Source of the DNA: Myxococcota bacterium
Lineage (GTDB): Bacteria; Myxococcota; SpSt-1050
Length of the DNA stretch: 64,000 bases
Direction of reading: 5' to 3'
Assembly: GCA_049969675.1 (NCBI GenBank)
Contig: JBMFOP010000001.1
Span: 1 to 64,000, forward strand
The notes beneath the pieces are model-generated. The model had not been told where the DNA came from. It did not search any database and was given only the letters and a program-made list of their open reading frames with translations. The position numbers were made by a program, and so were the translations under genes. Positions 25,480 through 54,373 of this stretch are shown one piece after another (position 1 is the stretch's first letter; each line of letters opens with the position of its first letter).

Positions 25480-25711
25480 TGACAATATGACTGATTTATC
25501 AGCCTAATTTTTGACAAAATGTCAGACCTACCTTTAAAATCTTGCTGTCTGGTATTCATCCAGTTAATTAGAATACTGACACCTTCTTCCCCATCTTTTA
25601 AAATTGAGGCGTAATATCAATAAATTACAGAATATCTTTCTCAATTTTTGAGTGAACGATTTTGGCATATCACCCTATTTGTGGTATCTACTATTCTGGA
25701 ATGCAAATTGA
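25480..25711 (+). promoter_or_regulatory. Candidate sigma54 promoter region of the T2SS operon
   Basis: TGACAATATGAC (25480), TGACAAAATGTCA (25512), IHF consensus TATCAATAAATTA (25615-25627), TGGAATGCAAATTGA (25697-25711). Confidence 0.45.
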
Positions 25712-25728
25712 AAAATCAAAAAGCCACT

Positions 25729-26646: not shown

Positions 26647-26663
26647 AGAATGAGGAGATTTTT

Positions 26664-29255
26664 ATGAATAGACGGATTTTGATTTTTCTTGCTTCAATAT
26701 TTATGACCCTCTTCTCTTTTGAACTGATGGCGCAGGTGGAGAAGAGGCCATCTCTTAATATCCCAACCAAGGGGATATTGCGAGGTAAAGATGTATTGAA
26801 TCCACAAAATCTGAAGAAGAAGAGGCCACCTCAGGAGGTTGTTGCACCGGAGAAGGAGCAGAAGGCAGAAATCAAAAAGGAGGAGAATCTACCTAAGGGT
26901 GAGGTATTAAAGGGTGAAGAGAAGGTGGAGATATCGGAGGCATCGGAGTCCAGTTCCTGTCTCAAGAGCAGAGGGAAGGGACCATATAAACTTGATTTTA
27001 ATAAGGCAGATATCATTGATATTGTGAAGTTTATCTCAGAACTCACCTGTAAGAATTTCATTATTCCAGATAATTTACGACAGGGTAAGATTACAATTAT
27101 GTCGCCGGAGCCGATCAGTGCTGAAGAAGTTTACAGGGCATTTCTATCCGCCCTTGAGGTCAATAAGATTACCATTGTACCAGCAGGTAAATATCTCAAG
27201 TTGATGGGTCAGAGGGAATCCATCTCTTCCACAATACCAACAGTCGTGGGAGATGAGAAATACCCGATAGATGACCGTATGATAACCAAGATTGTAAGGG
27301 TGAAGTATGTTGACCCCAATACATTGCTTCCGACTCTTAAGCAGCTTGCGAGCAAGGATGGGGATATATTTCTCTATGCCCCGACAAATGCGCTGATTAT
27401 AAGCGATACAGGTAATAATCTCTACAGACTTGAGAAGATAATGGAGGAGTTAGATAAGCCGGGCTTTGTTCAGGAGATCCACCTCTATCAATTGACCTAT
27501 GCCGTTGCCTCCCAGATGGCTGAGAAACTGACCAATATATTTGATGTTAAGGGTGGCCAGGGTGGCGCCCCGGCACCTACATTCAGGCCCGCCCCTGCAC
27601 CCGGAGAGCAGGCACCTCCCTTGAGGGAGAAGAGAGATGATGAGGATACAAAGATTTCTAAGATAATTGCGGACGATAGGACGAATAAACTTATCATAAT
27701 TGCCACAAAGAAGTCTTTTGAAGATATAGTTGAGGTGATAAAAAAACTGGATGTGCCAGTCCCCGGAGAGGGTCAGGTCCATGTTTACTATTTGCAATAT
27801 GCAGATGCTGACCAGCTTGCCAACACACTCTCTCAACTTGCACAGGGGTATAAAGGTGCGAAGGGTGCATCTACCCCCAAACCACCTACGGCTGCCCCAT
27901 CTGCCCCGGGTGCCTCTGCTGAACTCTTTCAGGGAGAGATCAAGATCACCGCTGACAAACCTACAAATTCGCTTTTGATAATTGCCAATCAGAGTGATTA
28001 CAAGAATCTTGTGAAGGTGATTGAAAAGTTAGATGTGAGGAGGAGACAGGTATTTGTTGAGGCTGTGATTATGGAGGTCTCTCTTGATAAGAGGAAGAGT
28101 GCCGGTCTGGCATTCAATGCAGGGATGGGAATGGAATATGATGGGCAGAAATTTCCAGTCTTCGCGGGGACTATGCTTGGTGGACTCAATTCACTGGTCC
28201 TTGAACCTTCATCACTGGCGCAGCTTGGAGGCTTTATCTCCGGTGCTCAGGGTCCTCCAGTTGAAGGTGTGGAACTGGGTGGTGCTACCAAGATAAGTTT
28301 ACCGAGTTTTGGTGTGATATTGAGGGCACTGCAGTCAAATTCAGATGTCAATGTCCTATCAACCCCGCATATTCTGACCACGGATAATGAAGATGCTGAG
28401 ATACTGGTAGGACAGAACATCCCATATCAGGCGGGCTTTACCTCAACCCTCGGTGGGGCAAATCTGACCTCCTGGACACCGATAGTATCCATTCAGAGAC
28501 AGGATGTGGCTCTCAAGATGAAGATCAAACCACAGATAAATCAGAGCGACTATGTAAAACTCAATATTGAACAGGAGGTCTCAGAGGTGGCAGGGACAGA
28601 CCCCGTATTGGGTCCTACCACTACAAAGAGGTCTGCAAAGACTGTGGTCGTTGTAAAGGACCAGCAGACTGTCGCAATAGGTGGTCTTATGAGAGATAAT
28701 CAATCTGTCTCTGTCTCAAAGGTCCCCATTCTGGGAGATATCCCAATTATTGGATGGCTATTTAAGAGTAAGGAGACCAAGACGACCAAGACTAATCTCT
28801 TATTGTTCCTGACGCCGTATATTATAAATGATAAGGATGATTTTAGGAGGATATTTGAGAGGAAGATGAGAGAGCGGAAGGAGTTTATTGAGCGTTTTTA
28901 TGGTGCAGGGGCAGAGTATGATATCTACATTGATTACAATAAGAAACACGGGCCATTCTTTGAGATGAATAAGAAGATGGATTCTGAACTAAATAAATTT
29001 GAAAACGGTGGGAAAGGTGTAGATGATGAGATTCTGATAACACCGGATACTGACCTGAATATGATAAAACAGAATGAAAATCCTGCAAAGGATTCAAAAG
29101 AGCAGCAGGGGGTAGAGAAGAAGATAAATCTCAAGTCTCAGACAGAATCCCCGCCAGTGATAAAAGATAATGCCATTGTGCCCAATCAGGATAAAGTTGA
29201 GGGCGATAAGCCCCTAAAGAATGATGAGCAGAAGGAGCATTTAGAGGTGGAATAG
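26664..29255 (+). CDS. gspD: Type II secretion secretin
   Basis: LDFNKADI N0 domain, TNALII/TNKLII/TNSLLI repeats, QVFVEAVIMEV, NVLSTPHILT, KVPILGDIPIIGWLF. Confidence 0.96.
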   Translation: MNRRILIFLASIFMTLFSFELMAQVEKRPSLNIPTKGILRGKDVLNPQNLKKKRPPQEVVAPEKEQKAEIKKEENLPKGEVLKGEEKVEISEASESSSCLKSRGKGPYKLDFNKADIIDIVKFISELTCKNFIIPDNLRQGKITIMSPEPISAEEVYRAFLSALEVNKITIVPAGKYLKLMGQRESISSTIPTVVGDEKYPIDDRMITKIVRVKYVDPNTLLPTLKQLASKDGDIFLYAPTNALIISDTGNNLYRLEKIMEELDKPGFVQEIHLYQLTYAVASQMAEKLTNIFDVKGGQGGAPAPTFRPAPAPGEQAPPLREKRDDEDTKISKIIADDRTNKLIIIATKKSFEDIVEVIKKLDVPVPGEGQVHVYYLQYADADQLANTLSQLAQGYKGAKGASTPKPPTAAPSAPGASAELFQGEIKITADKPTNSLLIIANQSDYKNLVKVIEKLDVRRRQVFVEAVIMEVSLDKRKSAGLAFNAGMGMEYDGQKFPVFAGTMLGGLNSLVLEPSSLAQLGGFISGAQGPPVEGVELGGATKISLPSFGVILRALQSNSDVNVLSTPHILTTDNEDAEILVGQNIPYQAGFTSTLGGANLTSWTPIVSIQRQDVALKMKIKPQINQSDYVKLNIEQEVSEVAGTDPVLGPTTTKRSAKTVVVVKDQQTVAIGGLMRDNQSVSVSKVPILGDIPIIGWLFKSKETKTTKTNLLLFLTPYIINDKDDFRRIFERKMRERKEFIERFYGAGAEYDIYIDYNKKHGPFFEMNKKMDSELNKFENGGKGVDDEILITPDTDLNMIKQNENPAKDSKEQQGVEKKINLKSQTESPPVIKDNAIVPNQDKVEGDKPLKNDEQKEHLEVE

Positions 29256-29259
29256 ATAT

Positions 29260-30960
29260 ATGGAACTCTTAGGCGAGATAATAGTAAGGGAATTCTCTCT
29301 TGAGCCGTCAAAGATTGAAGAGGCTTTACTGGTCCAGAGACAGAAAGGTGGCAGAATAGGAGAGATACTTATTGGTATGAGGGCAATAAATGAGCGACAG
29401 CTTGCAAAGGCACTCTCAATTCAGTCGGGGGTACCTCTTGCAGATACCATTAAGGCTGAGAAGGTGGACATTGAGCTTATCAAAGACCTGCCGATAAATT
29501 ATCTAAAACAACATAGATTGATCCCTGTTGAACTGAATGAAAGGTATGTTCTCATTCTGATAGCAGACCCTTATAATCTGACTCCGATTGATGTGGTAGC
29601 CTCCCTCTTTAAGAGGCCATATAGACTTATACTCGCCCCGTCAGATGAGGTGATATCAGTAATAAATGGGGTATTTGACAGGAAGTCTCAGGAGGCTGAG
29701 GCGGTGATGGATGATATGGCGACAGCCAATTTAGGAGAGCTCGCATCCGAACTGAATGAGCCTCAGGACCTTCTGGACGCCGGTGATGAGGCACCTATTA
29801 TTAGACTTGTAAATTCGCTCTTTGCTCAGGCAATTCGTGAGAGGGCATCTGATATTCACATTGAGCCGTATGAGAAGGAGATTGTTGTAAGGTTTCGCAT
29901 TGATGGTGTTCTGTATGAGATAATTAAGCCAGCCAAGAGATTTCATTCAAGTATCTGCTCACGCATCAAGATTATGGCGGGACTCAATATCGCCGAGAAG
30001 AGACTCCCTCAGGATGGGAGGATAAGATTTAAGATAGCAGGAAAAGATATTGATGTGAGAGTGAGTGTGATTCCGACTGCCCACGGTGAAAGAATTGTAA
30101 TGAGACTTCTGGATAAGAGTGCGGTTATTCTGGATCTGGAGCAACTCGGTATTTTTGATGATAAACTCAAGGTGGTCAGGGAGCTCATCAGGAGGAGTCA
30201 CGGAATTATACTCGTCACCGGTCCTACTGGCTCCGGTAAGACCACAACTCTATATGCTGCACTTTCAGATATAAATTCGCCGGATATCAATATACTCACC
30301 GCAGAGGATCCAATAGAGTATCAGATAAAGGGTATCTCTCAACTGCAGGTAAATCCAAAGATCGGATTGACATTTGCAGGGGCATTGAGGTCATTTTTGA
30401 GGCAGGACCCTGATGTGATTCTCGTAGGGGAGATAAGAGATCTGGAGACAGCAGAGATAGCCATTCAGGCATCACTCACCGGACATCTGGTCCTGTCTAC
30501 ACTTCACACAAATGATGCAGCGACTGCTGTGACCCGATTGGTGGATATGGGTGTTGAACCATTTCTGGTAGCAAGTTCACTCCTTGCAGTAATGGCACAG
30601 AGATTGGTCAGGGTTGTATGTCCTGAATGCAGAGTACCATATATGCCGACTTATGAAGAGATGGCAAAGATTGGGCTCTCTTCTGAGGAGGTAAAGAAGA
30701 AGGGATTTATCTATAAGAGTCAGGGCTGCGTAAAATGTATGAAGACAGGTTATGCAGGTAGAATCGGGATATATGAACTCCTGATAATAGATGATGAGAT
30801 TCGCCATCTGGTTCTCAAGAATACAGATTCAACTCAGATAAAAAAGCTCGCTGTCTTGAAGGGTATGGATACTTTAAGAGATGATGGGGCGAAGAAGGTG
30901 CTTCAGGGAATAACCACCATTGATGAGGTCCTGAGGGTCACTCAGGAGGATGTCTTTTAA
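29260..30960 (+). CDS. gspE: Type II secretion ATPase
   Basis: ASDIHIEP, GPTGSGKTTT, LRQDPDVILVGEIRD, TGHLVLSTLHTN, CPEC/CVKC. Confidence 0.96.
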   Translation: MELLGEIIVREFSLEPSKIEEALLVQRQKGGRIGEILIGMRAINERQLAKALSIQSGVPLADTIKAEKVDIELIKDLPINYLKQHRLIPVELNERYVLILIADPYNLTPIDVVASLFKRPYRLILAPSDEVISVINGVFDRKSQEAEAVMDDMATANLGELASELNEPQDLLDAGDEAPIIRLVNSLFAQAIRERASDIHIEPYEKEIVVRFRIDGVLYEIIKPAKRFHSSICSRIKIMAGLNIAEKRLPQDGRIRFKIAGKDIDVRVSVIPTAHGERIVMRLLDKSAVILDLEQLGIFDDKLKVVRELIRRSHGIILVTGPTGSGKTTTLYAALSDINSPDINILTAEDPIEYQIKGISQLQVNPKIGLTFAGALRSFLRQDPDVILVGEIRDLETAEIAIQASLTGHLVLSTLHTNDAATAVTRLVDMGVEPFLVASSLLAVMAQRLVRVVCPECRVPYMPTYEEMAKIGLSSEEVKKKGFIYKSQGCVKCMKTGYAGRIGIYELLIIDDEIRHLVLKNTDSTQIKKLAVLKGMDTLRDDGAKKVLQGITTIDEVLRVTQEDVF

Positions 30961-30970
30961 GAGGTAGGAT

Positions 30971-32191
30971 ATGCCAGTCTTTGAGGTAAGAGGATTTGAT
31001 TCGCAGGGCAAATCAATAAAAGATGTCTTTGACGCAGATAGTGAAAAGGCATTGAAGCTTCAACTAAAGAGAGATGGCATATTTATTGAGCAGATAGTAG
31101 AGAGAGGGTCAGGGAGGACCAGACGCCAAGAGCTGGATTTCTCAAAGTATTTTGAACATATAAATATTGCTGACCTCTCTGTGGTTACAAGACAGCTTGC
31201 CACTCTGGTTAAGGCTGGTATCCCGCTGGTAGATGCAATAGCGGCGCTTGTTGACCAGACCTCAAATATGAGATTTAAACAGGTTTTATCAGATATTAAG
31301 AATAGACTGAATGAAGGTTCAAATCTGGCTGATGCCCTCTCACACTATCCAAAGATATTCTCTAACCTCTATGTGAATATGGTAAGGGCGGGTGAGACCT
31401 CCGGTATGCTGGAGATTGTTTTAGAGCGAATTGCTGACTATACAGAGAACCAGGCGAGGCTTAAGTCAAAGATTACCGGTGCACTCACATATCCTGTAAT
31501 AATGCTCTTTGTGGCTATTGGAATTATCTCGTTCTTATTTGTTGCAGTGGTCCCAAAGATTACGAGGATATTTGAGGAGATGAGGGCATCTCTGCCGCTC
31601 CCCACAAAGATTCTAATTGCGATCTCATCCTTTGTGCGTGACTACTGGTGGTTGTTATTTTTGATTATCGGAATGACTATTTATTTTACATTAAAGTACA
31701 TCAGAACCCCTGCAGGTAGGGTGAAGTTTGACAGATTGCTCCTTCAGGCGCCAATCATAGGGGAGATTACCAGAATGCTTGCAATGGCGAGATTTTCAAG
31801 GACATTATCCACGCTCTTGAAATCTGGAGTGCCCATACTTCAATCAATGGATATCGTGAAAAATATCCTGAACAATCAGATACTGGTCTCGGCACTTGAG
31901 GAGGCGAGAAATTCAATCAGGGAAGGTGAGAGCATTGCAATCCCTCTAAAGAAGAGTGGTCAGTTTCCACCACTTGTAATTCATATGATTGCAGTAGGAG
32001 AGAAGTCCGGACAGTTAGAGGATATGTTAAATAATGTGGCTGATACTTACGACTATCAGGTGGATGCAAGGTTGAGTGCACTCACCTCATTGCTTGAGCC
32101 TTTTATGATATTGAGTATGGGTGCGGTTATCTTCTTTATGGTTATATCCATATTGCTTCCAATCTTACAGCTTAATGAATTTATTAAATAG
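30971..32191 (+). CDS. gspF: Type II secretion inner membrane platform protein
   Basis: RQLATLVKAGIPL, AGETSG, ALTYP, GEKSGQL, LLEP. Confidence 0.95.
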   Translation: MPVFEVRGFDSQGKSIKDVFDADSEKALKLQLKRDGIFIEQIVERGSGRTRRQELDFSKYFEHINIADLSVVTRQLATLVKAGIPLVDAIAALVDQTSNMRFKQVLSDIKNRLNEGSNLADALSHYPKIFSNLYVNMVRAGETSGMLEIVLERIADYTENQARLKSKITGALTYPVIMLFVAIGIISFLFVAVVPKITRIFEEMRASLPLPTKILIAISSFVRDYWWLLFLIIGMTIYFTLKYIRTPAGRVKFDRLLLQAPIIGEITRMLAMARFSRTLSTLLKSGVPILQSMDIVKNILNNQILVSALEEARNSIREGESIAIPLKKSGQFPPLVIHMIAVGEKSGQLEDMLNNVADTYDYQVDARLSALTSLLEPFMILSMGAVIFFMVISILLPILQLNEFIK

Positions 32192-32202
32192 GAGGATAAA
32201 AG

Positions 32203-32646
32203 ATGTTGAGAGATTTTCAGGAAAGAGAGAGGAGAAGGTCCCTGAATGAGACAGGTATGACACTTCTGGAGATTATGGTGGTAATCACCATAATCGGGAT
32301 CGTGATGAGCATTGTCGGAGTCTCAGTTATGAAGCAGCTTGAAAAGTCCAAGAAAGATGCGGCCTGTCTGCAGATCAGAAATTTTGAGGAGGCACTTGAC
32401 CACTATAAGCTTGAAAAGGGGAATTACCCCTCTACTGAGGAAGGGCTCGCCGCATTGGTTCAGGCTGGTAAGTTGAAAGGGAAGACAGTTCCCAAAGACC
32501 CATGGGGGAGGGACTACATTTATATCTACCCGGGTCAGAATAATCAGGATGGTCCCGACATTGTCTCCTATGGTGCGGATGGGAGAGAGGGAGGGAGTGG
32601 AGATGGTGAGGACCTGAACAACTGGGGTCCTCCGTGTGTAAAATAG
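32203..32646 (+). CDS. gspG: Major pseudopilin
   Basis: G/MTLLEIMVV prepilin site, YPSTEEGLAAL, PKDPWG, SYGADG. Confidence 0.95.
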   Translation: MLRDFQERERRRSLNETGMTLLEIMVVITIIGIVMSIVGVSVMKQLEKSKKDAACLQIRNFEEALDHYKLEKGNYPSTEEGLAALVQAGKLKGKTVPKDPWGRDYIYIYPGQNNQDGPDIVSYGADGREGGSGDGEDLNNWGPPCVK

Positions 32647-32658
32647 ACGGAATATGTA

Positions 32659-33321
32659 ATGAGACATTGTGAATGTGGAATAACGCTTATAGAGTTTGTT
32701 GTGGTAATTGCCATAATGGCATTTGTAATGGGAGTGTCAATTGTGTCACTCAATAATGTAACATCTTCTGATATGCGTTCTGCTGCATCACAGGTCTCGT
32801 CTGCCATCAGATATCTTTATAACTACTCTGCGCTCACCTCCAGATATTGTAGATTTGGGGTAAGGTTGCAGGAGAATACATATAGCGTTGAATGTTCGGA
32901 TACGCCATTTTATCTCAAGAAGACCCGACTTCAGGTAGTGGGCGATGAGGTAAAGAAGGATGAGGAAGGGGATAAAGATAGGGAGAAGAAATCCAATTCA
33001 TTGTTTGAAGAGCAGGGTGATAAGATATTGAAGGAGCAGAAGGCTGAATTTTTAGAACTCAAATCCCGATTTTTGAAATCAAAGACACTCCCCGGAAGTA
33101 TCTACTTTGATTCAATGATGGTGAGTCATCTAAGCGATAGGATATTTAAGGGGAATGAATATATCTATTTCTTCCCCGGCGGACAGACTGAGAATGCCTA
33201 TATCTATCTCTCCGATACAAAGCAGAATATCTATACAATAAGGTTATATGCATTAAGCGGTAAGGTGGAGGTCATTGGTGGCTTTGTTGAACCGGAAGAG
33301 GAGGAAGAGGAGCAGGAATGA
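32659..33321 (+). CDS. gspH: Minor pseudopilin H
   Basis: G/ITLIEFVVV, FFPGG; position after gspG. Confidence 0.8.
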   Translation: MRHCECGITLIEFVVVIAIMAFVMGVSIVSLNNVTSSDMRSAASQVSSAIRYLYNYSALTSRYCRFGVRLQENTYSVECSDTPFYLKKTRLQVVGDEVKKDEEGDKDREKKSNSLFEEQGDKILKEQKAEFLELKSRFLKSKTLPGSIYFDSMMVSHLSDRIFKGNEYIYFFPGGQTENAYIYLSDTKQNIYTIRLYALSGKVEVIGGFVEPEEEEEEQE

Positions 33322-33992
33322 TGACTCAAAAAAGGGAAGAGACTGGTTTTACACTTTTAGAGGTGATGATATCGCTCGCCATCCTCTCTGTCGCCTTAAG
33401 TGCGGTAATAGGTGTAAATATCGGGGCCATGGCAATCACCGGAAAGTCAAAAGGCATAATACTTGCCGCATCTCTTGCCCGTTCAAAGATGTTTGACCTT
33501 GAGGAGGAGCTCCGAATAAAGGGTTTTCCGGACTTTGATGAACAAATGGATGGAGACTTTGATGCCGAAGGTCATTCTGATTATAAATGGGTGGCTCAAA
33601 TAATAAAGATAAAACTCCCACAGTATTCTGCCCCCGAGGATATTGCATCTATGGCACAGCAGAATCGCGATTCAAATTCGCTCGGTATCTCGCCTGCTAC
33701 CATATCTCCAGAGATGTCAGCCGCTATGGCCGGGCTGCCGATGTTTATAAAGCAGATTGAGGATGCCATTAGAGAGGTGAAGGTGACGGTGATATGGCTG
33801 GAGCAGGAGAAGGAGCAGAGCCTGACGGTTACTACTCATTTCGTCAATATACCGGGTATGGAGATGGGAGTTGGGGGAGATATGATTCAACAGATAACAG
33901 GCGGTTCGGGCTCTATCCCTCTGCCATCATCGGGTTCAATGAATCCTTCTGGCTCAACTCCAAAGCTCAATCCGGGAGTTATAACGAGATGA
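33318..33992 (+). CDS. gspI: Minor pseudopilin I
   Basis: G/FTLLEVMISLAIL, REVKVTVIW; position in the operon. Confidence 0.8.
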   Translation: MMTQKREETGFTLLEVMISLAILSVALSAVIGVNIGAMAITGKSKGIILAASLARSKMFDLEEELRIKGFPDFDEQMDGDFDAEGHSDYKWVAQIIKIKLPQYSAPEDIASMAQQNRDSNSLGISPATISPEMSAAMAGLPMFIKQIEDAIREVKVTVIWLEQEKEQSLTVTTHFVNIPGMEMGVGGDMIQQITGGSGSIPLPSSGSMNPSGSTPKLNPGVITR

Positions 33993-34642
33993 ATAAGAGA
34001 GGAATGACATTACTGGAGATTATAGTCTCAGTGAGCATTGTTGCCGTTATGGCATCGCTGGTATACGGGAGTGCAAAAAGACAGATGGAGGCAAGGGAAC
34101 TCGCTACGAGGATTGAGGAGAGATACTCAATGGTGAGGATAGCGCTCAGCCGTATATGTCGCGAGGTCTCAATGGCATTTCTCTCAAATCATATATCACC
34201 GGATAAGAGGACTCAGACAATATTTAAGGGCGTAAATGAGAGCCCTATAAATAGACTGACATTTAGCTCCTTTTCACATCAGCGATTGAGGTCGGATGTG
34301 CACGAATCAGACCAGAATGTAATCACTTATTATGGAAGGCAGGATAAGAAGAATAGTTCACTTCTAAACATAATGAGGTATGAGAAGAAGATTATTGATG
34401 ACAAACCCGAGGAGTATCAGGAAGGGGAGGTTCTGGCGAGTGGTGTGGTAGGTCTTAGATTTAGATACTATGATGAGGAGAAGAGGGAGTGGGTGGATTC
34501 GTGGGATACAATGGGTATTGAGAGGGGAAATAAACTCCCCCGATATGTTGAGGTAACTTTAACCATTCTGGATGAAAATGGTAAGGAGATATCCTTCGTC
34601 TCAAAGGCGAAGATTCAGATACAGAGACCGCTCTCATTCTGA
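33989..34642 (+). CDS. gspJ: Minor pseudopilin J
   Basis: MNKRG/MTLLEII (ATGA overlap with gspI), WVDSWD...LPRYVEVTL. Confidence 0.85.
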   Translation: MNKRGMTLLEIIVSVSIVAVMASLVYGSAKRQMEARELATRIEERYSMVRIALSRICREVSMAFLSNHISPDKRTQTIFKGVNESPINRLTFSSFSHQRLRSDVHESDQNVITYYGRQDKKNSSLLNIMRYEKKIIDDKPEEYQEGEVLASGVVGLRFRYYDEEKREWVDSWDTMGIERGNKLPRYVEVTLTILDENGKEISFVSKAKIQIQRPLSF

Positions 34643-44526: not shown

Positions 44527-47500
44527 ATGAGCAAGAGAACATTTTTAGCAATTATCATTATGGCACTTTTGCTTTCTTTCTGTGCTACAGAGCCAGAGCC
44601 TCTGGATAGGACGCAACCAGAGGCAGTCAACAAAGCCATTTTTAGTGGTGAATGGATTTATAAAGCAACTGTAACTGATACAGATTGGGATAATAAATTT
44701 ACATTTATAGGAGAAGAGACGAGCTCTTATATGGGAGATGCCTTCAAGCTTAGATGGGAAATTACAATGGACTATCTAAATGCATATAAAGTTGCACAGA
44801 GGTATATGACCCTTGATGGCAGATTGGTTGAGAATGATGCTGGAGATAAGAGTCTGGTGCTATCTTTTAGAATCAAAAAGCATTACGATATAAGATACCG
44901 ATATAATAGTACGACAAGGGAAGACCTGAATGTTATTGAAGAGAATTATGATAGACCCTGGAATGAGAGAGAATATATGGAGGTTGATTGGTCGCAGAAT
45001 CTGGCTACCAATGTGAGCAATCCGTTGCAGATGGACCTTGCCTCCGGAGAGCTTGTGAGAGAGCCGGTCTCAGTTTATGAAAATGTAGAATTCTTTGCGA
45101 GAGGTGCTACAAAGGATGAAGATTACAAGATTGATACGAGGAAATGGAATCCCAAGAAAGACCCTGAAGTCTATTTAATAAATATTGACCTCAAAGAGTC
45201 AATCAGGTCTCGTCTTGAGAGCTGGATACAACTTTATTATGGTGAATATATGCCTCCGGTGACAGTTAAGACCCGTCACTCACTTATGAAGGCCCTTCCT
45301 ATAGATCAGCAGACCTATAAACCAATGCAGTATGATGATTATTTCTTTAGAAGGTTTGGCTTCTTCAGAACCGAGTATGATACCTATGACCCCGAGAGGG
45401 GACCAATGGAGAATCAGAAACAATACCTTATTAACAGATGGGATTTTTCAAATGGTAAGAAGTTGATATGGTATGCCTCCCCAAGTTTTCAGGAGCAGAT
45501 CAATGAAGGCGATTCAGACCTGAAGGGCTATGCACTCAGGGTTATTGAAGAATGGAATAAGGTACTGAAGGAGGCTCTCGGCAGAACAGATGATGTCCTT
45601 GAATTTAGAGAAAATGAACCTTTGTGTAACGCTGGTGTTAAGGTGATCACAAATTCTGATGGGGTGAAAGTCTGTGAGGATGGGAAACAGGTAACAAATC
45701 TGGATGGCAGTAAGAGATGGAAGTATGAAGTGGGTGATCTAAGATATTCATTCTTAAACTTCATTAAAAAACCTCAAAATGCATCTCCGCTTGGCTATGG
45801 TCCGTTAACGCCTGATGCAGATACTGGTGAGATAGTAAGTGCCACAGTAAATGTATATGGTAATTGGGTGGATTATGTGGTGAGAAGGGCTATGGATCAG
45901 TATGATGTTGCAGCAGGTTTATGTACGCTTGACAATGTAAAGGACGGCTTCTTTTATAATCCAGAGACAGGGAGGTGTGATAGTCAGGTATTTATAGGCA
46001 AGTACAAAGGGGGAGTTGTTCAACCAAAGGCGGCCCCACCATCAGAAGGTGATAAGAAGAATAAAAACAGGTTGAGAACACTCACACCAGCTCTTAAGAC
46101 GGCATATTATCCCAAACTTGATATTCACAAACCAGACCCACAAATCCCCCAGGAACAGATGAAGAAAGACCTTGAAAATCTCAAAGTGCTTTATAAAGAC
46201 CAGCTCAAACATCCTGTTGCGCTGGATCTTAACGGATTTAAGAGCATTAAAGGTACAAAATTTGAATCAATGCTTGTCCCACATTCTACATTCAATTCAT
46301 TGCTGCCCTATGCAAAATCAGCAGATGATGCTGAGGTGGTAGCACTCCTTTCTCCAGCCAGAAGACTCTCTCCAGAATTTCTATATGCAATGAAGAAGGG
46401 TCAGGAGAAGAGGATGCATTATTGTGACGAACCGATTATGTTTGAACCAGCGATTAATGCATTTGTAGAGGAGATGAAAGATAAACCCAGAGATGAAGTA
46501 TATAAAATTTTGAGGAACTGGATATGGTATACAACAGCGCTTCATGAGATGGGACATACACTTGGATTAAGACACAATTTTAGAGGGTCTGTAGACCAGA
46601 GAAATTTCTCTCAAGAGTATTTTGCAGCCTACGATGAATACTGGAAACAGATTGATGCAATAAGAGGCAAATACTGGAATAGAATCAAAAATGGAGATGC
46701 AGAGGCATACGAGGCATATGTTCAGGAGGTTGATGATATAAAATCCATACACAATAGATATGCCTCAACATCTATAATGGACTATCTCGGCGATTGGACA
46801 AAGTGGCAATATCCTGTTGGGAGCTATGACAGGGCGGCAATTCTATTTGGATATGGAAAGAAGGTTGAGGTTTCTGATGGAAAAGGAGGATGGGTACTTG
46901 CGGATTATATGGACGGCGATTTCAGACAGAAAGATTTCTATGATGAAAATGAACTCGCAGAATCTGGAAGGAAGGTTAGATATTATATGTTCTGCTCGGA
47001 TGAAAAGGTATTTGATGACGCCTTCTGTACCAGATTTGATGTTGGGACAACTGCTACTGAGATCGTAAGGAACTTTATTAGAGATGCACAGCCTGCATAT
47101 TTCTTCAAGAACTTCAAGAGACATTCAGCGATGTTTGATGAGAGGAGAGACAGTTACTATATCAACAAATGGCTCTGGACTTACTATACTTATGGCAAGG
47201 CGTTAGGCGAAATGACTCTCGGTTCAATAAGGTATGAAGAGATGTGGGGCTCCATATTTGATGGAATTGATGCAATTAACAGAGGTCCAGAGACAAGGGA
47301 TATGGTTCCGGGGTATCATAGAAATGGTGGTGAAGACCTATTAAGGGCTTCAATGATATTCTATTATTACCTGATTTATGATGTCTTAATGAGGCCTGAT
47401 TACGGTTATTATCAGTTGAGCTATGATACATCACATCAAAAGTACTGGGAATCCACCGAACCACAATATCTTGATGACTCAAAACCCAGTACTTATGTGC

Positions 47501-48513
47501 CTGCTGGGATTGGTTGGGGGTGGATGGATAAATACGACCAGCAAAGAGATATCAATCAGTATTATCCTCATCTTGAGAGGATTGGTGTGGAGCTTGACAA
47601 GATAATTGCACTTGAGATACTGTCAATCCCTGCGGCACTAAATGAACCGTTATATTTTGAAAAGGCAAATGGTGTCAATTTCTGGAACTCTCTCTGGACA
47701 AATAACGGCAGTCAACTCTGGGAGGTAATTAAAGGACTTATCACAGATAACTTCTCACATTATCAAAATCCATGGTGTATTAAATGTGATGCCGCATGCA
47801 GGGCGGACCCGATAAATCATCCTCCAGAGATTAAGACATATCCTGTTGACCTGCTTGAAGGTATGAGAAAAGGCAGACTGATTGGTGGCTGGGTAGAGCC
47901 GACAAGGCCAAATAGATGTGGCTCCGACGACGAGTCTCCGATGCAGCCCGGAATGGATGCACTCTTTGCAATCTATCCGATTTTCTACGCTATTGCCGGT
48001 GCATCACATCCCTGGTATCATAATTCACTATCAGATTATCTTGATTCGCAGGTCGTTGGTGGTGCTCATAGGTTTGATCCACCTCCGGGTGCAAAGACGG
48101 TTACAATGGTTAATAGCTCCGGGACAAAGACATATCTTGCAGCCCAGACGGATGACAATCTGAGTATCTCATATCAACTCGTTTCAAATGGGAGATGGAT
48201 AAATAATCATCTTGCCTATTACACCGCCTGTAATAATGGTGAAGTACCATCTCAGGAGTTAAGAACTGAGATGAATAAAAATTGCAATGATTGGGAGAGC
48301 TGTTGTTCTGATGTCCTTGATTGTTATAATCCTTGGTTAAATCCAAAACCAGAATATTGTGATGCAGAAGGATGGGACATTTTATTTATGTATGATGGAT
48401 TTAAGTATAGAAATCTGGATAGAATTGAGGCAATGCTTATAATGATGCAGGATATGATTGATATCGCCGGGCATTACCAATGGAGGGTCCCTGGGTACCT
48501 TGAAGAACCCTGA
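44527..48513 (+). CDS. Large zinc-dependent metalloprotease lipoprotein (metzincin)
   Basis: Lipobox LSFC; HEMGHTLGLRHNF zinc motif; SIMDY Met-turn; YMFCSDE; Cys-rich C-terminus. Confidence 0.88.
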   Translation: MSKRTFLAIIIMALLLSFCATEPEPLDRTQPEAVNKAIFSGEWIYKATVTDTDWDNKFTFIGEETSSYMGDAFKLRWEITMDYLNAYKVAQRYMTLDGRLVENDAGDKSLVLSFRIKKHYDIRYRYNSTTREDLNVIEENYDRPWNEREYMEVDWSQNLATNVSNPLQMDLASGELVREPVSVYENVEFFARGATKDEDYKIDTRKWNPKKDPEVYLINIDLKESIRSRLESWIQLYYGEYMPPVTVKTRHSLMKALPIDQQTYKPMQYDDYFFRRFGFFRTEYDTYDPERGPMENQKQYLINRWDFSNGKKLIWYASPSFQEQINEGDSDLKGYALRVIEEWNKVLKEALGRTDDVLEFRENEPLCNAGVKVITNSDGVKVCEDGKQVTNLDGSKRWKYEVGDLRYSFLNFIKKPQNASPLGYGPLTPDADTGEIVSATVNVYGNWVDYVVRRAMDQYDVAAGLCTLDNVKDGFFYNPETGRCDSQVFIGKYKGGVVQPKAAPPSEGDKKNKNRLRTLTPALKTAYYPKLDIHKPDPQIPQEQMKKDLENLKVLYKDQLKHPVALDLNGFKSIKGTKFESMLVPHSTFNSLLPYAKSADDAEVVALLSPARRLSPEFLYAMKKGQEKRMHYCDEPIMFEPAINAFVEEMKDKPRDEVYKILRNWIWYTTALHEMGHTLGLRHNFRGSVDQRNFSQEYFAAYDEYWKQIDAIRGKYWNRIKNGDAEAYEAYVQEVDDIKSIHNRYASTSIMDYLGDWTKWQYPVGSYDRAAILFGYGKKVEVSDGKGGWVLADYMDGDFRQKDFYDENELAESGRKVRYYMFCSDEKVFDDAFCTRFDVGTTATEIVRNFIRDAQPAYFFKNFKRHSAMFDERRDSYYINKWLWTYYTYGKALGEMTLGSIRYEEMWGSIFDGIDAINRGPETRDMVPGYHRNGGEDLLRASMIFYYYLIYDVLMRPDYGYYQLSYDTSHQKYWESTEPQYLDDSKPSTYVPAGIGWGWMDKYDQQRDINQYYPHLERIGVELDKIIALEILSIPAALNEPLYFEKANGVNFWNSLWTNNGSQLWEVIKGLITDNFSHYQNPWCIKCDAACRADPINHPPEIKTYPVDLLEGMRKGRLIGGWVEPTRPNRCGSDDESPMQPGMDALFAIYPIFYAIAGASHPWYHNSLSDYLDSQVVGGAHRFDPPPGAKTVTMVNSSGTKTYLAAQTDDNLSISYQLVSNGRWINNHLAYYTACNNGEVPSQELRTEMNKNCNDWESCCSDVLDCYNPWLNPKPEYCDAEGWDILFMYDGFKYRNLDRIEAMLIMMQDMIDIAGHYQWRVPGYLEEP

Positions 48514-49950: not shown

Positions 49951-50556
49951 ATGATTAAGAGAATTTTTTGCTTGATTTTAGTACTATTGAACCCTTTACT
50001 TTATGTAGAGTGTTCAGATAGTAACTCTGACAATAATCTATCAGATGCGGGTGCGGATGTATTAATAAGTGGCTGCAATACAATATCCGATTGTTCAGAT
50101 AAAGAGACTAAAGACTCTGTCTGTGTTAAGAAAGGTTGTGTATCAATAGGAGAGGCCTCAAAGTTTCTCCATATAGTATTTTATCCAAAATACATCAGTT
50201 CTGTGGTAAATGATATCAGTTATTTTACATATTATTTCTTTTATCCACTTGATGTGGAAGGGAATAATTTATCCTGTGAAAAACTCCTGAGTGATTTCAA
50301 CTTTAGTCAAAAGAGAGACCTCAACATTATTCAATCATATGAAAAACAGGCGACCATCTCAGCTACTGGCTCAGAGATGTATACACTCCCGTTGCCCACG
50401 ATAAAAGACTCTCTATTGTTCTTCATCTTTTATCAGGAAAATGGGAGTGTAGTTGCTATTGGTTGTAGCGAGAAGATTGATACTACATCAAATGATTCAG
50501 TGGGTATCTTCCCCTGCAAACCAGAGCAGATAAATGCCTGTCTGGGAGAGTTCTAA
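49951..50556 (+). CDS. Hypothetical exported Cys-rich protein, possible lipoprotein
   Basis: Signal-like N-terminus with Cys, SDAGAD linker, several Cys residues. Confidence 0.65.
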   Translation: MIKRIFCLILVLLNPLLYVECSDSNSDNNLSDAGADVLISGCNTISDCSDKETKDSVCVKKGCVSIGEASKFLHIVFYPKYISSVVNDISYFTYYFFYPLDVEGNNLSCEKLLSDFNFSQKRDLNIIQSYEKQATISATGSEMYTLPLPTIKDSLLFFIFYQENGSVVAIGCSEKIDTTSNDSVGIFPCKPEQINACLGEF

Positions 50557-51494
50557 TCTGAGTTACCATTTGTTCTTTCAAACTCCCTTTTTAGATTTTT
50601 ATAGTTGTCCGCGGTATAGCAGAGTGTATCTGTTATCTTATAGGTCTTATCTTCAATCTCTATCCTGGTCTGTCTGATTCTACAGGCGGCATTTATAGAA
50701 TGACCAATTTCACCAGAAAGTTCAACTATCTTATCAAAGTTGTCAGTATTTTCAGAGGATCTTTCAGCGGCTATCTGTGCAGAGGTAATTGTGGCATCAG
50801 TGGATTTGTCTAAGAGCTCAAAGGTCTGTTCTTCTTTAATTTTCTCTCGGAGTTGTTTTTTTGTCTTAGGATTATCTTCTGACAACTCTTTTGCATCTTT
50901 AGCAACAGCAGTTGTATCCTGCTTTATCCTCTTTGCCTCATCAAATCCAAATTTTTCATTTTTAGCAATATTTTTGGAATCTGACACAAGATTGGCAGAG
51001 CTATTTGTTAGAGAAGCACCGATTAATATGCCTTCTTCTCCTTTTTTCTGATAACCAATCAATGCACCGGTGGATGTCAATCCACTCTTAAGTGCGGTTT
51101 CTTCTATACTGTTGCCGATAGAACCTGCAGCCAGAGAGTTAGCAATATTTGCCCCTCTTTGCCCATTTTTAACCGCACCAATTGAAGTAGCAGACCCAAC
51201 AGCACACATTTTTGCTCCTGCTAAAATGAATGAATCCCCTGAGCCAGTTTTGATAAAGTTATTAATGTCTCCTGATGCAACCCCAGCAGTTTTTGAGACC
51301 AAATTTAAGGTTGTCGCTCCTTCGTCATATCCCATCTGTTTTAAATTTTGAGATGCCCCTTCTATTACACCTATTCCCGCAGATGCATAATCTCCTGTTG
51401 CCACATCTAAACCGGCACATGCATAATCTCCTATGTATTTATATTTTTCTGGTAAAAGATTATCGGTTGCATAGTTTAATAACTTTCCTAACAT
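50553..51494 (-). CDS. Hypothetical Gly/Ala-rich helical protein, translocator- or pore-former-like
   Basis: AAGGAGG RBS, no signal peptide, glycine-zipper-like segments, C-terminal coiled-coil-like region. Confidence 0.7.
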   Translation of the reverse strand: MLGKLLNYATDNLLPEKYKYIGDYACAGLDVATGDYASAGIGVIEGASQNLKQMGYDEGATTLNLVSKTAGVASGDINNFIKTGSGDSFILAGAKMCAVGSATSIGAVKNGQRGANIANSLAAGSIGNSIEETALKSGLTSTGALIGYQKKGEEGILIGASLTNSSANLVSDSKNIAKNEKFGFDEAKRIKQDTTAVAKDAKELSEDNPKTKKQLREKIKEEQTFELLDKSTDATITSAQIAAERSSENTDNFDKIVELSGEIGHSINAACRIRQTRIEIEDKTYKITDTLCYTADNYKNLKREFERTNGNSD

Positions 51495-51495
51495 A

Positions 51496-52248
51496 TTAGT
51501 CCTCCTTTTCTTTTAATCTATCAATTTCACTACTATTCCCTGTCCAATATGCATAAGCGTATTGATCTGTTTCTGTCATAAGCTTGAGATTTGTCTCGTT
51601 TTCCACTTTTTTGGTATTTCTTTCAATAGAGGCAGCTAATCTTATACAGTTGCTGGCATCAAAATTAAATGCATCTATATCTCCGCTCTTTAACTTCTGA
51701 ACCTGTTCTCTATAGTTATCAAGCCCTTTACCTTTATTTGGAGTCTCTTTATCTCCTCCCCTTTCTTCAATTTCTACAAAGTTTTCAAGAACAGTTAGAA
51801 GACGTTGCTTTTCAGATTCACTCATATATGGATTATTTAAAGAATCGTTGATATTTTTTATGGATGCCTGAAGGCTTTTGAGATTTCTTCTCAATTCTTC
51901 TTCGTTCTTTGCTTTATTGTTAACATTTCCCAGCCCTGCTACATTGACACCCATCCAGTCCAGAGATTTGTCCAATACAGTGCCAATAGGAACAATTGTA
52001 CCAAGTGCATGACCACATAGATTAAATAGACCTTTTCTCCTTTTTCTCTTTTTTTGAGCGGACTGATATTTATTTTTATAATTTTCAATAATTTTTTCTA
52101 TGTCCTGATCTGTCAACTCTGGTAAATACTCCTTTCTCTCTGTTTGATTTCTCTGGTGATTCTGTACTTTTGGTGATTGATATTGAATATCTGAATATAC
52201 ATTATAGATATTATCAGTACTATAATTGATGTTATTACTAATTTCCAT
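51496..52248 (-). CDS. Hypothetical protein with basic patch, hydrophobic segment and coiled coil
   Basis: GGAGG RBS before MEISN; Asn/Ser-rich N-terminus; KKRKRRK-GLFNLCGHALGTIVPIGTVL. Confidence 0.7.
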   Translation of the reverse strand: MEISNNINYSTDNIYNVYSDIQYQSPKVQNHQRNQTERKEYLPELTDQDIEKIIENYKNKYQSAQKKRKRRKGLFNLCGHALGTIVPIGTVLDKSLDWMGVNVAGLGNVNNKAKNEEELRRNLKSLQASIKNINDSLNNPYMSESEKQRLLTVLENFVEIEERGGDKETPNKGKGLDNYREQVQKLKSGDIDAFNFDASNCIRLAASIERNTKKVENETNLKLMTETDQYAYAYWTGNSSEIDRLKEKED

Positions 52249-52263
52249 ATTACCCTCCATATA

Positions 52264-52809
52264 TTATTTCATATTGTGAATTATAGTCTTTAAGGCATCA
52301 TCTTTAGATTTATTATAATTGGAAATTAATTCAATATTTCTCTCTTCCATATGCATCTGGTCAATAAGTTTTTGCATAAGCGCCGGATTTTCATTTAATG
52401 CCTTAAGTAATTTTTCATCTCCATTTCTAAATGCAATAAGGAGTTCTGTTCCGCTCTTCTTTGAATAATCCTCAGTTGATTGATTGGTAGTAGAATTATT
52501 GGCGTTTGTTGTGGAGTTGGTCTGATTATCTGATGATGTTTTATTGGTTGGTGAAGCGGTTGTGTTAGTTGATTCATTGGAATAGTCTCTTGCCTTTGCC
52601 GGAGCAGCTTTCCATTTCCTCTTATGATCCTTTGCCTTTGCCGGAGCGGGTTTAAAATGCATCTTGCCGTTGTTCTCAACCAGGTCATCTGAGTTTGACT
52701 GGTTTACATTACCGTTAGGAGATGGCGTCTGATATACACCATTCTCATAAGTCATCTCTGAATCGGTCGTGTAATTGTTTGTGTTGGTCCCTGTTACTGT
52801 TGTACTCAT
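52264..52809 (-). CDS. Low-complexity protein with a T3SS needle (SctF)-like C-terminal helix
   Basis: AAGGAGG RBS; Thr/Asn/Ser-rich N-terminus; C-terminus NPALMQKL...ISNYNKSKDDALKTIIHNMK. The CDS is solid, the function is inferred. Confidence 0.6.
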   Translation of the reverse strand: MSTTVTGTNTNNYTTDSEMTYENGVYQTPSPNGNVNQSNSDDLVENNGKMHFKPAPAKAKDHKRKWKAAPAKARDYSNESTNTTASPTNKTSSDNQTNSTTNANNSTTNQSTEDYSKKSGTELLIAFRNGDEKLLKALNENPALMQKLIDQMHMEERNIELISNYNKSKDDALKTIIHNMK

Positions 52810-52876
52810 AACTTTCCTCCTTTAAATTGTTGAAAAAAAATGTTAATAAAAAAACCATCATACTTTATTTTAGCTC

Positions 52877-52891
52877 TCAATTTGTGTGCCA
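52877..52891 (-). promoter_or_regulatory. Sigma54-like -24/-12 promoter (TTGA variant)
   Basis: Minus strand TGGCACACAAATTGA, about 68 nt upstream of ATG 52809. Confidence 0.55.
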
Positions 52892-52908: not shown

Positions 52909-53334
52909 ATGAAGAGATTGGCAATAGATTATGGAAAGAGGAGGGCGGGTTTGGCGATTACAGATGATACTGGTAATGTAATAATGCCATATAAAATTAT
53001 TTACTATAAAGATAGCGAAAGTTTTATTAAACAGATAAAAGAGATCTTAAGCCAACTACAACCTGCAGAGATTGTTATGGGTCTTCCACTAAATATGAAT
53101 GGTTCAGAGTCTGAGATGTCAAAAGAGGTTAAGAGAATATCTAAAAGGATAAAGAAAGATTCAAATATTGAAATAAAATTATATGACGAGAGACTGACGA
53201 CCTTTGAGGCACAACAAATGCTGACAGAACAGGGGATCTCGGCTAAAAAACAGAAAGAGATAATTGATATGTATGCCGCATATTGTATATTGAAAGGATA
53301 TATTAACGAAGAATTGGAGAAGAGGAATGATTAA
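52909..53334 (+). CDS. ruvX: RuvX/YqgF nuclease
   Basis: LAIDYGKRRAGLAITD, VMGLPLNMNG, DERLTT, IDMYAA. Confidence 0.92.
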   Translation: MKRLAIDYGKRRAGLAITDDTGNVIMPYKIIYYKDSESFIKQIKEILSQLQPAEIVMGLPLNMNGSESEMSKEVKRISKRIKKDSNIEIKLYDERLTTFEAQQMLTEQGISAKKQKEIIDMYAAYCILKGYINEELEKRND

Positions 53335-54373
53335 AAAAATATTGTTGGCTTTATTGTTTATTGTTTTGTTGTTTGTGGTCGGCTCTGTGTATCTATATAA
53401 AAGCACCAGAGAGTTTTTACAGACGCCTTATAAGAGTGAAAAAAGAGAGGTCTCTCTTAGAATTAAGAAGGGTATGAGTGATAGTGAAGTGGCAAGGCTG
53501 ATTTATGAAAAGGGACTTGTCTCCAATGAAAAGAGGTTTTATTATTTTTTGAGGTTTTTGCATAAGAAGAAAGGGCTTGAGGTGAAGTCTGGTGAATATC
53601 TTTTGAGTCCCGATATGACTCCCTGGGAGATTGCAGAGAAGATGATTAAGAGAGATGTAATCAGGTACAGGGTAACTATCCCTGAGGGACTTCGTTATGA
53701 GGAGGTGGCACAGATACTTGAGAGAGAGGGGGTTGCGATTGCAGATGAATTTATTAATCTTTGTAAGGATAGGGTATATCTCTCTTCCCTCGGCATTGAA
53801 GGTGAGAGTTGCGAGGGGTATTTGCTTCCAGATACATATATGATTGAGAAGGGACTTGATGTAAAAGAGGTCTTCAAGATTATAAATGATGAATTTAAAA
53901 AGAGGGTGGGGGCTGGTTATATAGAGAAGGCAAAGGAGATGGGTTTCAGTCTCTATCAGGTGTTGATTATTGCATCTATGATTGAGAAGGAGGCAAGGCT
54001 TGATTCAGAGAGGCCAATTATTGCGTCTGTTATCTTAAACAGATTGAAACGAGATATGGGCCTTTATATTGATGCAACTGTAATATATGGTCTGATAAGA
54101 GAGAGAGGTGGATTTAATGGGAATCTTACAAGAAAAGACCTTGATACACCGACTCGTTATAATACATATCGGGTCAAAGGACTCCCTCCAACTCCGATAT
54201 GCAATCCGGGGATTAAGAGTATCAATGCGGTATTGATGCCAGCCAGAACAAATTACCTGTATTATGTCTCAAAAAATGATGGCACGCATCATTTCTGTGA
54301 GGATATTGAATGTCACAATAAGGCTGTTAAGAGGTATCAGATTGATTATTTTAAGAAGAATAATAAGAGATGA
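53327..54373 (+). CDS. mltG: Endolytic transglycosylase
   Basis: VTIPEG, EGYLLPDTY, ASMIEKE, NRL, YNTY, GLPPTPICNPG. Confidence 0.94.
   Translation: MIKKILLALLFIVLLFVVGSVYLYKSTREFLQTPYKSEKREVSLRIKKGMSDSEVARLIYEKGLVSNEKRFYYFLRFLHKKKGLEVKSGEYLLSPDMTPWEIAEKMIKRDVIRYRVTIPEGLRYEEVAQILEREGVAIADEFINLCKDRVYLSSLGIEGESCEGYLLPDTYMIEKGLDVKEVFKIINDEFKKRVGAGYIEKAKEMGFSLYQVLIIASMIEKEARLDSERPIIASVILNRLKRDMGLYIDATVIYGLIRERGGFNGNLTRKDLDTPTRYNTYRVKGLPPTPICNPGIKSINAVLMPARTNYLYYVSKNDGTHHFCEDIECHNKAVKRYQIDYFKKNNKR

What the first reader, a model, noticed from the sequence alone, without database searches (positions are those of the whole stretch)
50553..52891. Orphan sigma54-driven three-gene operon resembling a T3SS needle plus translocon module
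Seen: three tightly coupled minus-strand genes with gaps of 15 nt and 1 nt, each with a strong SD, none with a Sec signal peptide. The first two have Ser/Thr/Asn-rich N-termini. They follow TGGCACACAAATTGA and sit between the rho and ruvX regions. Known: T3SS substrates lack signal peptides and have disordered polar N-termini, and translocators (SctE/SctB) combine coiled coils with Gly/Ala-rich hydrophobic segments. Myxococcus xanthus uses an atypical 'needleless' T3SS* in contact-dependent prey killing. Inference: this may be a detached filament/translocon or effector cassette for a myxobacterial-type T3SS encoded elsewhere, or a stand-alone filament-plus-pore system.
Basis: partly seen in the sequence, partly recalled or inferred. 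Interest (0 to 1): 0.82.

Follow-up and report, generated by a model that had tools for sequence, protein, structure and literature searches.

The report
Needle-like gene in 'needleless' secretion system

Summary
The three genes, their 15- and 1-nt gaps, ribosome-binding sites and sigma54-type site are real and conserved as a unit beside ruvX in all 4 same-order genomes held. The genome (Myxococcota) encodes a scattered non-flagellar type III secretion core without a dedicated secretin, and its main operons carry the same promoter motif. Gene 1 is a variable polar arm plus a strongly conserved C-terminal helix pair whose last 35 residues are homologous to the gene heading the sctI-sctJ-sctL-sctN operon. 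This tail family occurs in 171 of 201 phylum genomes, 168 of them with SctJ. A broad profile of the family ranks Shigella/Salmonella needle proteins first in the PDB (best E 9e-4), but four narrower profiles and the reciprocal Pfam search miss or do not reach significance, so needle homology is probable, not proven. The translocon reading is weak: gene 2's hydrophobic stretch is absent from 4 of 8 orthologs, gene 3 is only marginally hydrophobic, and low-confidence models match no tip or translocator. Verdict: a lineage-restricted satellite operon of a myxobacterial T3SS; its wider value is the hint that 'needleless' myxobacterial systems keep a divergent needle-like gene.

The parts
52877..52891 (-). 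sigma54-type -24/-12 site TGGCAC-N5-TTGA, same class as the sites heading the T3SS operons on C49 and C69
   Evidence: rpoN present in 5 of 5 genomes
52816..52821 (-). AGGAGG ribosome-binding site of gene 1
52264..52809 (-). Gene 1 (P0001, 181 aa): variable Ser/Thr/Asn-rich arm with short F-x-x-APAK repeats, then a conserved helical C-terminal domain; candidate needle/pilin-like subunit
   Evidence: orthologs 159-272 aa long
52267..52473 (-). C-terminal 69 residues of gene 1; the last ~35 are homologous to the protein encoded before sctI (C49:11971-12453) and weakly to SctF needle C-termini
   Evidence: E 1.8e-5 among 5485 own ORFs; hhalign 97.6%, 35 columns; dN 0.03 to G002
51496..52248 (-). 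Gene 2 (P0002, 250 aa): soluble helical-bundle protein of no known family; candidate tip/adaptor or chaperone
   Evidence: (pLDDT 69, pTM 0.60)
51916..52092 (-). Lineage-specific insertion in gene 2 (about residues 53-111) holding the basic patch KKRKRRK and the only hydrophobic stretch; absent from 4 of 8 orthologs
50553..51494 (-). Gene 3 (P0003, 313 aa): Gly/Ala-rich amphipathic helices, conserved N-terminal P-x-x-Y...D-x-x-C-A-x-x-D motif, charged helical C-terminal half; candidate membrane-active cargo
   Evidence: (pLDDT 62, pTM 0.44)
52909..54373 (+). Divergent ruvX-mltG neighbours; the operon sits beside them in G000-G004 (context, not part of the module)

Best explanation
This is a conserved three-gene operon under a sigma54-type site whose first protein shares its C-terminal helix with the gene that heads the genome's sctI-sctJ-sctL-sctN operon, and it is likely a detached substrate module of that scattered, secretin-less type III secretion system. 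Shown: the operon, its conservation in the order, the T3SS core, the shared promoter motif and the shared tail. Inferred: sigma54 switches the operon on with the T3SS genes; the polar N-termini of proteins 1 and 2 would route them through the export gate; protein 1 would co-polymerise through its needle-like tail with its paralog into a rod extension or filament, displaying its long variable arm outward; protein 2 would act as its soluble cap, adaptor or chaperone; protein 3 would be the exported, possibly membrane-inserting cargo. My odds: T3SS-linked operon 0.8; tail homologous to SctF/HrpA 0.6; protein 1 polymerises 0.45; protein 3 inserts in a target membrane 0.25.
For: T3SS core with no flagellin: SctV (scores 631 bits to the SctV model, 566 to FlhA, both under cut-off), SctR/S/T/U, SctI/J/L/N, flagellin 0. 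Same promoter class: ranks 2 (C49 operon), 4 (this operon), 5 (C69 operon) and 3 (TPR lipoprotein-FHA pair whose homolog lies next to sctV in L086 and L096). Tail homology: second-best own-genome hit of the ortholog profile is the pre-sctI gene, reversed-profile control best E 0.14, hhalign 97.6%. G000-G004 each hold exactly two tail genes. Tail family in 171 of 201 genomes, SctJ in 173, both in 168, neither in 25 (my tally). Broad profile A10: 10 of the top 11 PDB hits are MxiH/PrgI, best E 8.7e-4, aligned to the very C-terminus; 6 of 32 members hit T3SS_needle_F, 6 HrpA_pilin, 5 the NCBIfam HrpA model; ESM Atlas lists needle-F-bearing clusters at 0.90 and 0.89. Tail under strong constraint: dN 0.03 against 0.23 for ruvX with synonymous sites saturated.
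Against: Needle match depends on 7 divergent rows: profiles A4, A9 and A15 give no needle hit and A13 gives E 0.28-0.52 below designed repeat proteins; PF09392 does not find gene 1 in any of 5 genomes; no gene-1 ortholog hits a needle family on its own, and 6 of 32 members also hit an unrelated helical-bundle family. The promoter class is not T3SS-specific: an outer-membrane barrel, a lipoprotein, a radC-like gene and a pilin-like gene also rank high, and the matrix was trained partly on orthologous sites. No T3SS gene lies near the operon in any genome. Genes 2 and 3 have no informative homolog or fold. SctJ is in 86% of the phylum sample, so its presence in the 5 operon genomes says little. 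No dedicated secretin, so the way across the outer membrane is unexplained.
Confidence: 0.52

Rival explanations
1. The operon is T3SS-linked, but the shared tail is a targeting or docking helix (rod-like, or binding the export gate), not a polymer-forming needle domain; the three proteins would be ordinary exported cargo or regulators and no filament is built.
For: Homology to the pre-sctI family is firm for only 35 columns; the family is attached to very different N-termini and reaches 26 copies in one genome, often far from T3SS genes; the needle match is fragile. Earlier finding e1-2326454 (unchecked) reports a rod-like orphan family that travels with a sigma factor rather than a secretion machine.
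Against: The tail ends at the last residue in register with needle C-termini and is preceded by a helix and a Pro-containing turn as in needles; SctI is encoded separately right after the paralog; the best PDB matches are needles, no rod protein is listed.
Confidence: 0.22
2. One reading: gene 1 is the needle and genes 2 and 3 are an SctE/SctB-like translocon pair that forms a pore in target cells.
For: Gene order and coupling; gene 3 has a Gly/Ala-rich stretch reached by only 18 of 2105 own proteins and a charged helical C-terminal half; gene 2 has a hydrophobic stretch in this genome.
Against: Gene 2's hydrophobic stretch is absent in 4 of 8 orthologs, whose best 19-residue hydropathy is 0.41-0.95; gene 3's is at most 1.43 in 6 of 7 homologs; no translocator family hit; no small class II chaperone gene in the operon and no LcrH/SycD match over cut-off in the genome; genes 2-3 found in only 5 of 201 genomes while the T3SS is in 173.
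Confidence: 0.12
3. The operon has nothing to do with the T3SS: a sigma54-regulated cytoplasmic or surface module whose first protein kept an old helical tail by descent or chance.
For: No physical linkage to T3SS genes; sigma54 regulon is broad; helical hairpins give false hits.
Against: Tail family tracks SctJ across the phylum; its closest own-genome relative heads the T3SS operon; most polar N-terminus in the proteome; three of the other four top promoter sites head T3SS-linked operons.
Confidence: 0.11
4. A stand-alone filament-plus-pore system working without a T3SS.
For: Self-contained operon kept at one locus across an order.
Against: No export signal of another pathway seen, no transporter in the operon, and 5 of 5 carriers have a T3SS ring gene.
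Confidence: 0.03

Closest known systems
'Myxo' non-flagellar T3SS (Abby and Rocha 2012, PMC3459982), including the needle-less T3SS* of Myxococcus xanthus, MXAN_2434-2464 (PMC10433427, PMC12075869, PMC12428579)
   Same: Export apparatus, ATPase, SctJ, SctI present; no flagellin; the 3 secretins found sit in T2SS, type IV pilus and Tad-like clusters. A Tad/Kil-like cluster is in the same genome.
   Different: Here the core is split over at least 4 loci with sigma54-type sites; the papers state that Myxo systems lack SctF, tip and translocon, whereas a needle-like tail gene precedes sctI here and in both loci of a complete two-locus genome (G117); this operon has no counterpart in those loci. 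Long or short type could not be assigned: SctN, R, U, V score better with the larger G117 locus, the tail gene, SctI and SctJ slightly better with the smaller.
SctF needle subunits (PrgI, MxiH; PF09392) and HrpA pilin (PF09589, NF053530)
   Same: C-terminal helix-turn-helix ending at the last residue with matching conserved positions; no signal peptide; variable N-terminus.
   Different: 181 aa (159-272 in orthologs) with a long polar repeat arm against 80-98 aa for the PDB chains; below every family cut-off; a second, detached copy besides the cluster paralog.
Translocator/tip operons (SctA-SctB-SctE, e.g. lcrV-yopB-yopD; Bsp22 and EspA filament proteins) (architecture recalled, not tested against sequences other than through Pfam, NCBIfam and PDB searches)
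   Same: Coupled operon of signal-less helical proteins, one Gly/Ala-rich, kept apart from the export core.
   Different: No conserved transmembrane segment in gene 2, marginal in gene 3, no chaperone gene, no sequence or fold match.

Membership tests
Myxo-type non-flagellar T3SS (host system) | Export apparatus SctRSTUV, ATPase SctN, SctJ, SctI in the genome | tested here: met
   (several divergent, under curated cut-offs)
Myxo-type non-flagellar T3SS (host system) | No flagellin and no dedicated SctC secretin | tested here: met
   flagellin 0 in a 99.9% complete genome; 3 secretins, assigned by neighbours to T2SS, T4P and Tad-like clusters
SctF needle subunit (gene 1) | Scores over the cut-off of PF09392 or TIGR02105 | tested here: not met
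SctF needle subunit (gene 1) | Detectable homology of the C-terminal helix to PrgI/MxiH | tested here: inconclusive
   E 8.7e-4 with broad profile A10; E 0.28-0.52 with A13; none with A4, A9, A15; Atlas 0.89-0.90
SctF needle subunit (gene 1) | Small (about 80-100 aa) protein encoded in the T3SS cluster | tested here: not met
   181 aa and detached; the paralog (160 aa) is in the cluster
SctF needle subunit (gene 1) | Exported by the T3SS and polymerises into a hollow filament | not testable with these tools
   needs secretion assay and cryo-EM
Myxococcota pre-sctI tail family (unnamed; gene 1) | Conserved terminal helix Q..E.R....SN..K..D..K..I.N+R | tested here: met
SctE/SctB hydrophobic translocators (gene 2) | One or two conserved membrane-spanning segments | tested here: not met
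   hydrophobic stretch absent in 4 of 8 orthologs
SctE/SctB hydrophobic translocators (gene 3) | One or two conserved membrane-spanning segments | tested here: inconclusive
   best 19-residue hydropathy 1.0-1.43 in 6 of 7 homologs, 2.0 in one; Gly/Ala-rich
SctE/SctB/SctA (genes 2, 3) | Sequence match to a translocator or tip family | tested here: not met
   Pfam, NCBIfam; PDB profiles
SctE/SctB/SctA (genes 2, 3) | Fold like a tip or translocator | tested here: inconclusive
   models pTM 0.60 and 0.44; best Z 5.9 (rmsd 5.0, 119 aligned) and 8.3 (rmsd 3.1, 81 aligned) to unrelated helical proteins
Translocon operon | Class II (SycD/LcrH) chaperone encoded with the translocators | tested here: not met
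   none in the operon; 34 weak TPR matches genome-wide, none over cut-off
sigma54 promoter | Conserved -24 GG / -12 TGC-like elements upstream and rpoN in the genome | tested here: met
   transcription from it not testable

The most novel reading that the evidence does not exclude
Myxobacterial type III systems are not needle-less: the gene in front of sctI, present in most of the phylum, is a divergent SctF/HrpA that builds a filament, and this operon is a detached, co-regulated second subunit with its own cap and membrane-inserting partner, a non-canonical needle-tip-pore module aimed at other microbes that works without a dedicated secretin.
Probability: 0.25. Interest if true: 0.85.

Novelty: new variant of a known kind. 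Interest (0 to 1): 0.62.

Why it matters
The five papers read here describe the myxobacterial T3SS as lacking needle and translocon and leave open how its substrates get out; Abby and Rocha built an evolutionary step (loss of SctF) on that absence. A needle-like tail gene that tracks SctJ across the phylum and stands before sctI names a concrete gene to delete or tag in a laboratory myxobacterium, and this operon gives three candidate substrates. If only the T3SS link holds, it is still a rare look at the cargo side of these systems.

Tried and rejected
Pfam and NCBIfam on the three proteins: nothing over cut-off. Paralogs of genes 2 and 3 in the own genome: none. Needle search with narrower profiles: negative or not significant; reciprocal PF09392: no match to gene 1. 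ESM Atlas for gene 3: nothing above 0.84; Atlas structure hits for gene 1 were sigma-factor helices under the naming bar. Foldseek and VIA-align on both models: no E<=0.001 hit, and no tip or translocator among the rows shown, which does not exclude them. Complex prediction of the gene 1 tail, protein 3 and protein 2 (partner): no answer, score 0.00, neither support nor evidence against. RNA runs: no RNA holder listed. The sixth hits in the phylum searches for genes 2 and 3 (G148, G116) were dropped because they lie in or opposite unrelated long ORFs. Three long repeat proteins among the 23 representative hits (P0021, P0025, P0029) and P0030, P0033 were left out of alignments A11/A13. My interim idea that the host system is the 'short' Myxo locus was dropped. 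A genome-contig scan with the G004-like group gave 4 loci and no new complete operon. Gene 1 itself was not folded (both jobs went to genes 2 and 3). No paper describing this operon or an SctF-like gene in myxobacteria came up in 6 searches; the library lacks most subscription papers, Thiery et al. 2022 was not read, and no supplements were opened.
Full report
Observation. The window holds three minus-strand ORFs at 52264-52809 (181 aa, P0001), 51496-52248 (250 aa, P0002) and 50553-51494 (313 aa, P0003), with gaps of 15 and 1 nt and clear SD sequences. They lie between rho plus a convergent lipoprotein gene and the divergent ruvX-mltG pair. TGGCACACAAATTGA begins 82 nt above the first ATG. The bare pattern occurs 70 times in the genome, but the site is kept upstream of the orthologs in G001-G004 and in 4 of 4 metagenome loci, and rpoN is present in 5 of 5 genomes. 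Gene 1 has the most Ser/Thr/Asn-rich first 25 residues of 1645 ORFs scored and gene 2 is in the top 8; gene 3 is ordinary. None has an N-terminal hydrophobic region (hydropathy only).

Organism and spread. A near-identical protein is labelled Myxococcota by its source. The genome is 3.05 Mb, 39% GC, 99.9% complete. All three genes, in order and beside ruvX, are found in the 3 same-genus genomes and in the one same-order genome of another family, and in 3 of 4 metagenome loci, the fourth ending after gene 1. Profiles of genes 2 and 3 each match 6 of 201 phylum genomes at E<=0.01; five are G000-G004 and the sixth was dropped as spurious in each case. Between G000 and G002 synonymous sites are saturated while dN is 0.03 for the gene 1 tail, 0.26 for gene 2, 0.43 for gene 3, 0.23 for ruvX and 0.017 for rho: real genes, with the tail strongly constrained.

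The host system. The genome has one SctV, a cluster ending in fliO-like, sctR, S, T, U on C69, a cluster [unknown]-sctI-sctJ-small gene-sctL-sctN on C49, and no flagellin. Most parts score better to non-flagellar than flagellar models but under the curated cut-offs; SctL scores better to FliH. The three secretins sit in T2SS, type IV pilus and Tad-like clusters, judged from neighbours. This matches the 'Myxo' T3SS of Abby and Rocha (PMC3459982; passages and section 9 read), described as lacking secretin, SctF, tip and translocon; passages of PMC10433427, PMC12075869, PMC10849154 and PMC12428579 repeat this for the M. xanthus T3SS* and leave the export route open. A matrix from 9 sites of relatives (6 orthologous to this promoter, 3 from pre-sctI promoters, none from G000) ranks the C49 operon 2nd, a TPR-lipoprotein/FHA pair 3rd, this operon 4th and the C69 operon 5th of 89 sites; 9 real sites exceed 20 bits against 1 in a shuffled genome. 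The TPR/FHA pair has homologs beside sctV in L086 and L096. Other high sites head unrelated genes, so the motif shows a shared promoter class, not an exclusive regulon.

Gene 1. Orthologs have arms of very different length with short APAK repeats and share only the last ~65 residues. The ortholog profile's second-best hit among 5485 own ORFs is the gene before sctI (E 1.8e-5; reversed-profile control 0.14), and the two families align over 35 columns at 97.6%. The four-sequence profile alone hits 111 of 201 phylum genomes, always at a C-terminus in the 26 loci inspected; 23 of these 26 are homologs of the pre-sctI protein, and sctI or sctJ lay within the 3-kb locus in 5 of 26, with further adjacent cases in larger fetches. 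The broad profile A10 matches 171 of 201 genomes and SctJ 173; by my tally 168 have both, 3 only the tail, 5 only SctJ, 25 neither (kin are not independent, the SctJ model can catch FliF, and unpublished G195 is in the counts). G000-G004 have exactly two tail genes each. In G117, a complete genome with two T3SS loci, each locus has a tail gene upstream of sctI.

Is the tail a needle domain? For: A10, built only from phylum sequences recruited from gene 1, returns 12 PDB hits at E<=10, of which 10 of the top 11 are MxiH or PrgI (best E 8.7e-4) and the other a 43-residue chain of a needle co-chaperone entry, aligned to the last residue; 6 of 32 members hit T3SS_needle_F, 6 HrpA_pilin and 5 the NCBIfam HrpA model below cut-off; the Atlas feature search lists Myxococcota clusters at 0.92-0.90 and clusters with 23-27% needle-F members at 0.90 and 0.89. 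Against: profiles A4, A9 and A15 give no needle hit and A13 only E 0.28-0.52, so the signal rests on seven divergent rows; PF09392 misses gene 1 in 5 of 5 genomes; no gene 1 ortholog hits a needle family singly, and an unrelated helical family is hit as often. I put homology to SctF/HrpA at about 0.6. Gene 1 fails formal SctF membership.

Genes 2 and 3. Gene 2's basic patch and only hydrophobic stretch lie in an insertion missing from 4 of 8 orthologs, so it is not a conserved membrane protein; its model is a soluble helical bundle (pLDDT 69, pTM 0.60) without a meaningful match. Gene 3 is Gly/Ala-rich (18 of 2105 own proteins reach the same level) with best hydropathy 1.0-1.43 in 6 of 7 homologs and 2.0 in one; its model is poor (pTM 0.44) and matches nothing specific. 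Only 5 homologs came back from the profile search of the protein database. There is no chaperone gene in the operon. A membrane-active role for protein 3 remains possible; a canonical translocon pair is unlikely.

Mechanism. Best reading (0.52): a lineage-specific satellite operon of the scattered T3SS. Sigma54 would turn it on with the sct operons; protein 1 would be exported and join its paralog through the shared tail in a rod extension or filament, with the variable arm outside; protein 2 would cap or chaperone it; protein 3 would be the cargo. How any of this crosses the outer membrane is unexplained; a Tad/Kil-like cluster is in the same genome, which is the partner proposed for T3SS* in PMC12075869. 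Rivals: tail as a docking tag without polymer (0.22), full needle plus translocon (0.12), no T3SS link (0.11), stand-alone system (0.03).

Novelty and verdict. Six literature searches found no description of this operon or of an SctF-like gene in myxobacteria; subscription papers and supplements were not seen. Earlier scan notes on scattered myxobacterial T3SS pieces agree with the setting but are unchecked. New variant of a known kind; interest 0.62, carried by the testable suggestion that 'needleless' systems keep a divergent needle-like gene (novel case 0.25, interest 0.85 if true).

Noticed in passing
G000:C1:105088-110220 (L093, outside the window): Tad/Kil-like cluster: secretin with pilus N-domain, FHA-fused T2SSE ATPase and a double-FHA/TPR protein, on the same contig as the finding.
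   Followed up: partly
G000:C17:17680-19334 (L089): TPR lipoprotein plus FHA/YscD-like membrane protein under a top-ranking sigma54-type site; homologs lie next to sctV elsewhere (L086, L096), so probably another detached T3SS piece.
   Followed up: partly
G009, also G050, G018, G024, G038, G044: The needle-like tail family is expanded to 11-26 matches in some genomes, on proteins with unrelated N-termini.
   Followed up: no
G117:C1 loci L095:2710-3279 and L060:15124-15591: Both T3SS loci of a complete two-locus genome carry a tail-family gene upstream of sctI; the smaller locus shows no SctN in the 20 kb fetched.
   Followed up: partly
L059:317-1135 and 2212-3021; L049:7703-7981: Tail-family proteins whose N-termini are Gly/Ala-rich and amphipathic, two of them directly beside sctV; they combine features of gene 1 and gene 3 in one chain.
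   Followed up: no
window 25648-34642: Type II secretion gene cluster with a sigma54-type site at 25697.
   Followed up: no
window 44527-48513: 1328-aa lipoprotein with a met-zincin motif, conserved upstream of rho in the genus.
   Followed up: no
window 49951-50556: Cys-containing lipoprotein of no known family, convergent with gene 3 and overlapping its stop by 4 bases; conserved in the genus.
   Followed up: no
P0005: Database protein 98% identical to the first half of gene 3 and then unrelated sequence; looks like a chimeric assembly or gene call.
   Followed up: no
G000:C139:2367-3017 and C66:5013-5732: An outer-membrane beta-barrel (rank 1) and a Cys-rich lipoprotein (rank 6) carry the same promoter class as the T3SS operons; the barrel is a candidate outer-membrane partner.
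   Followed up: no
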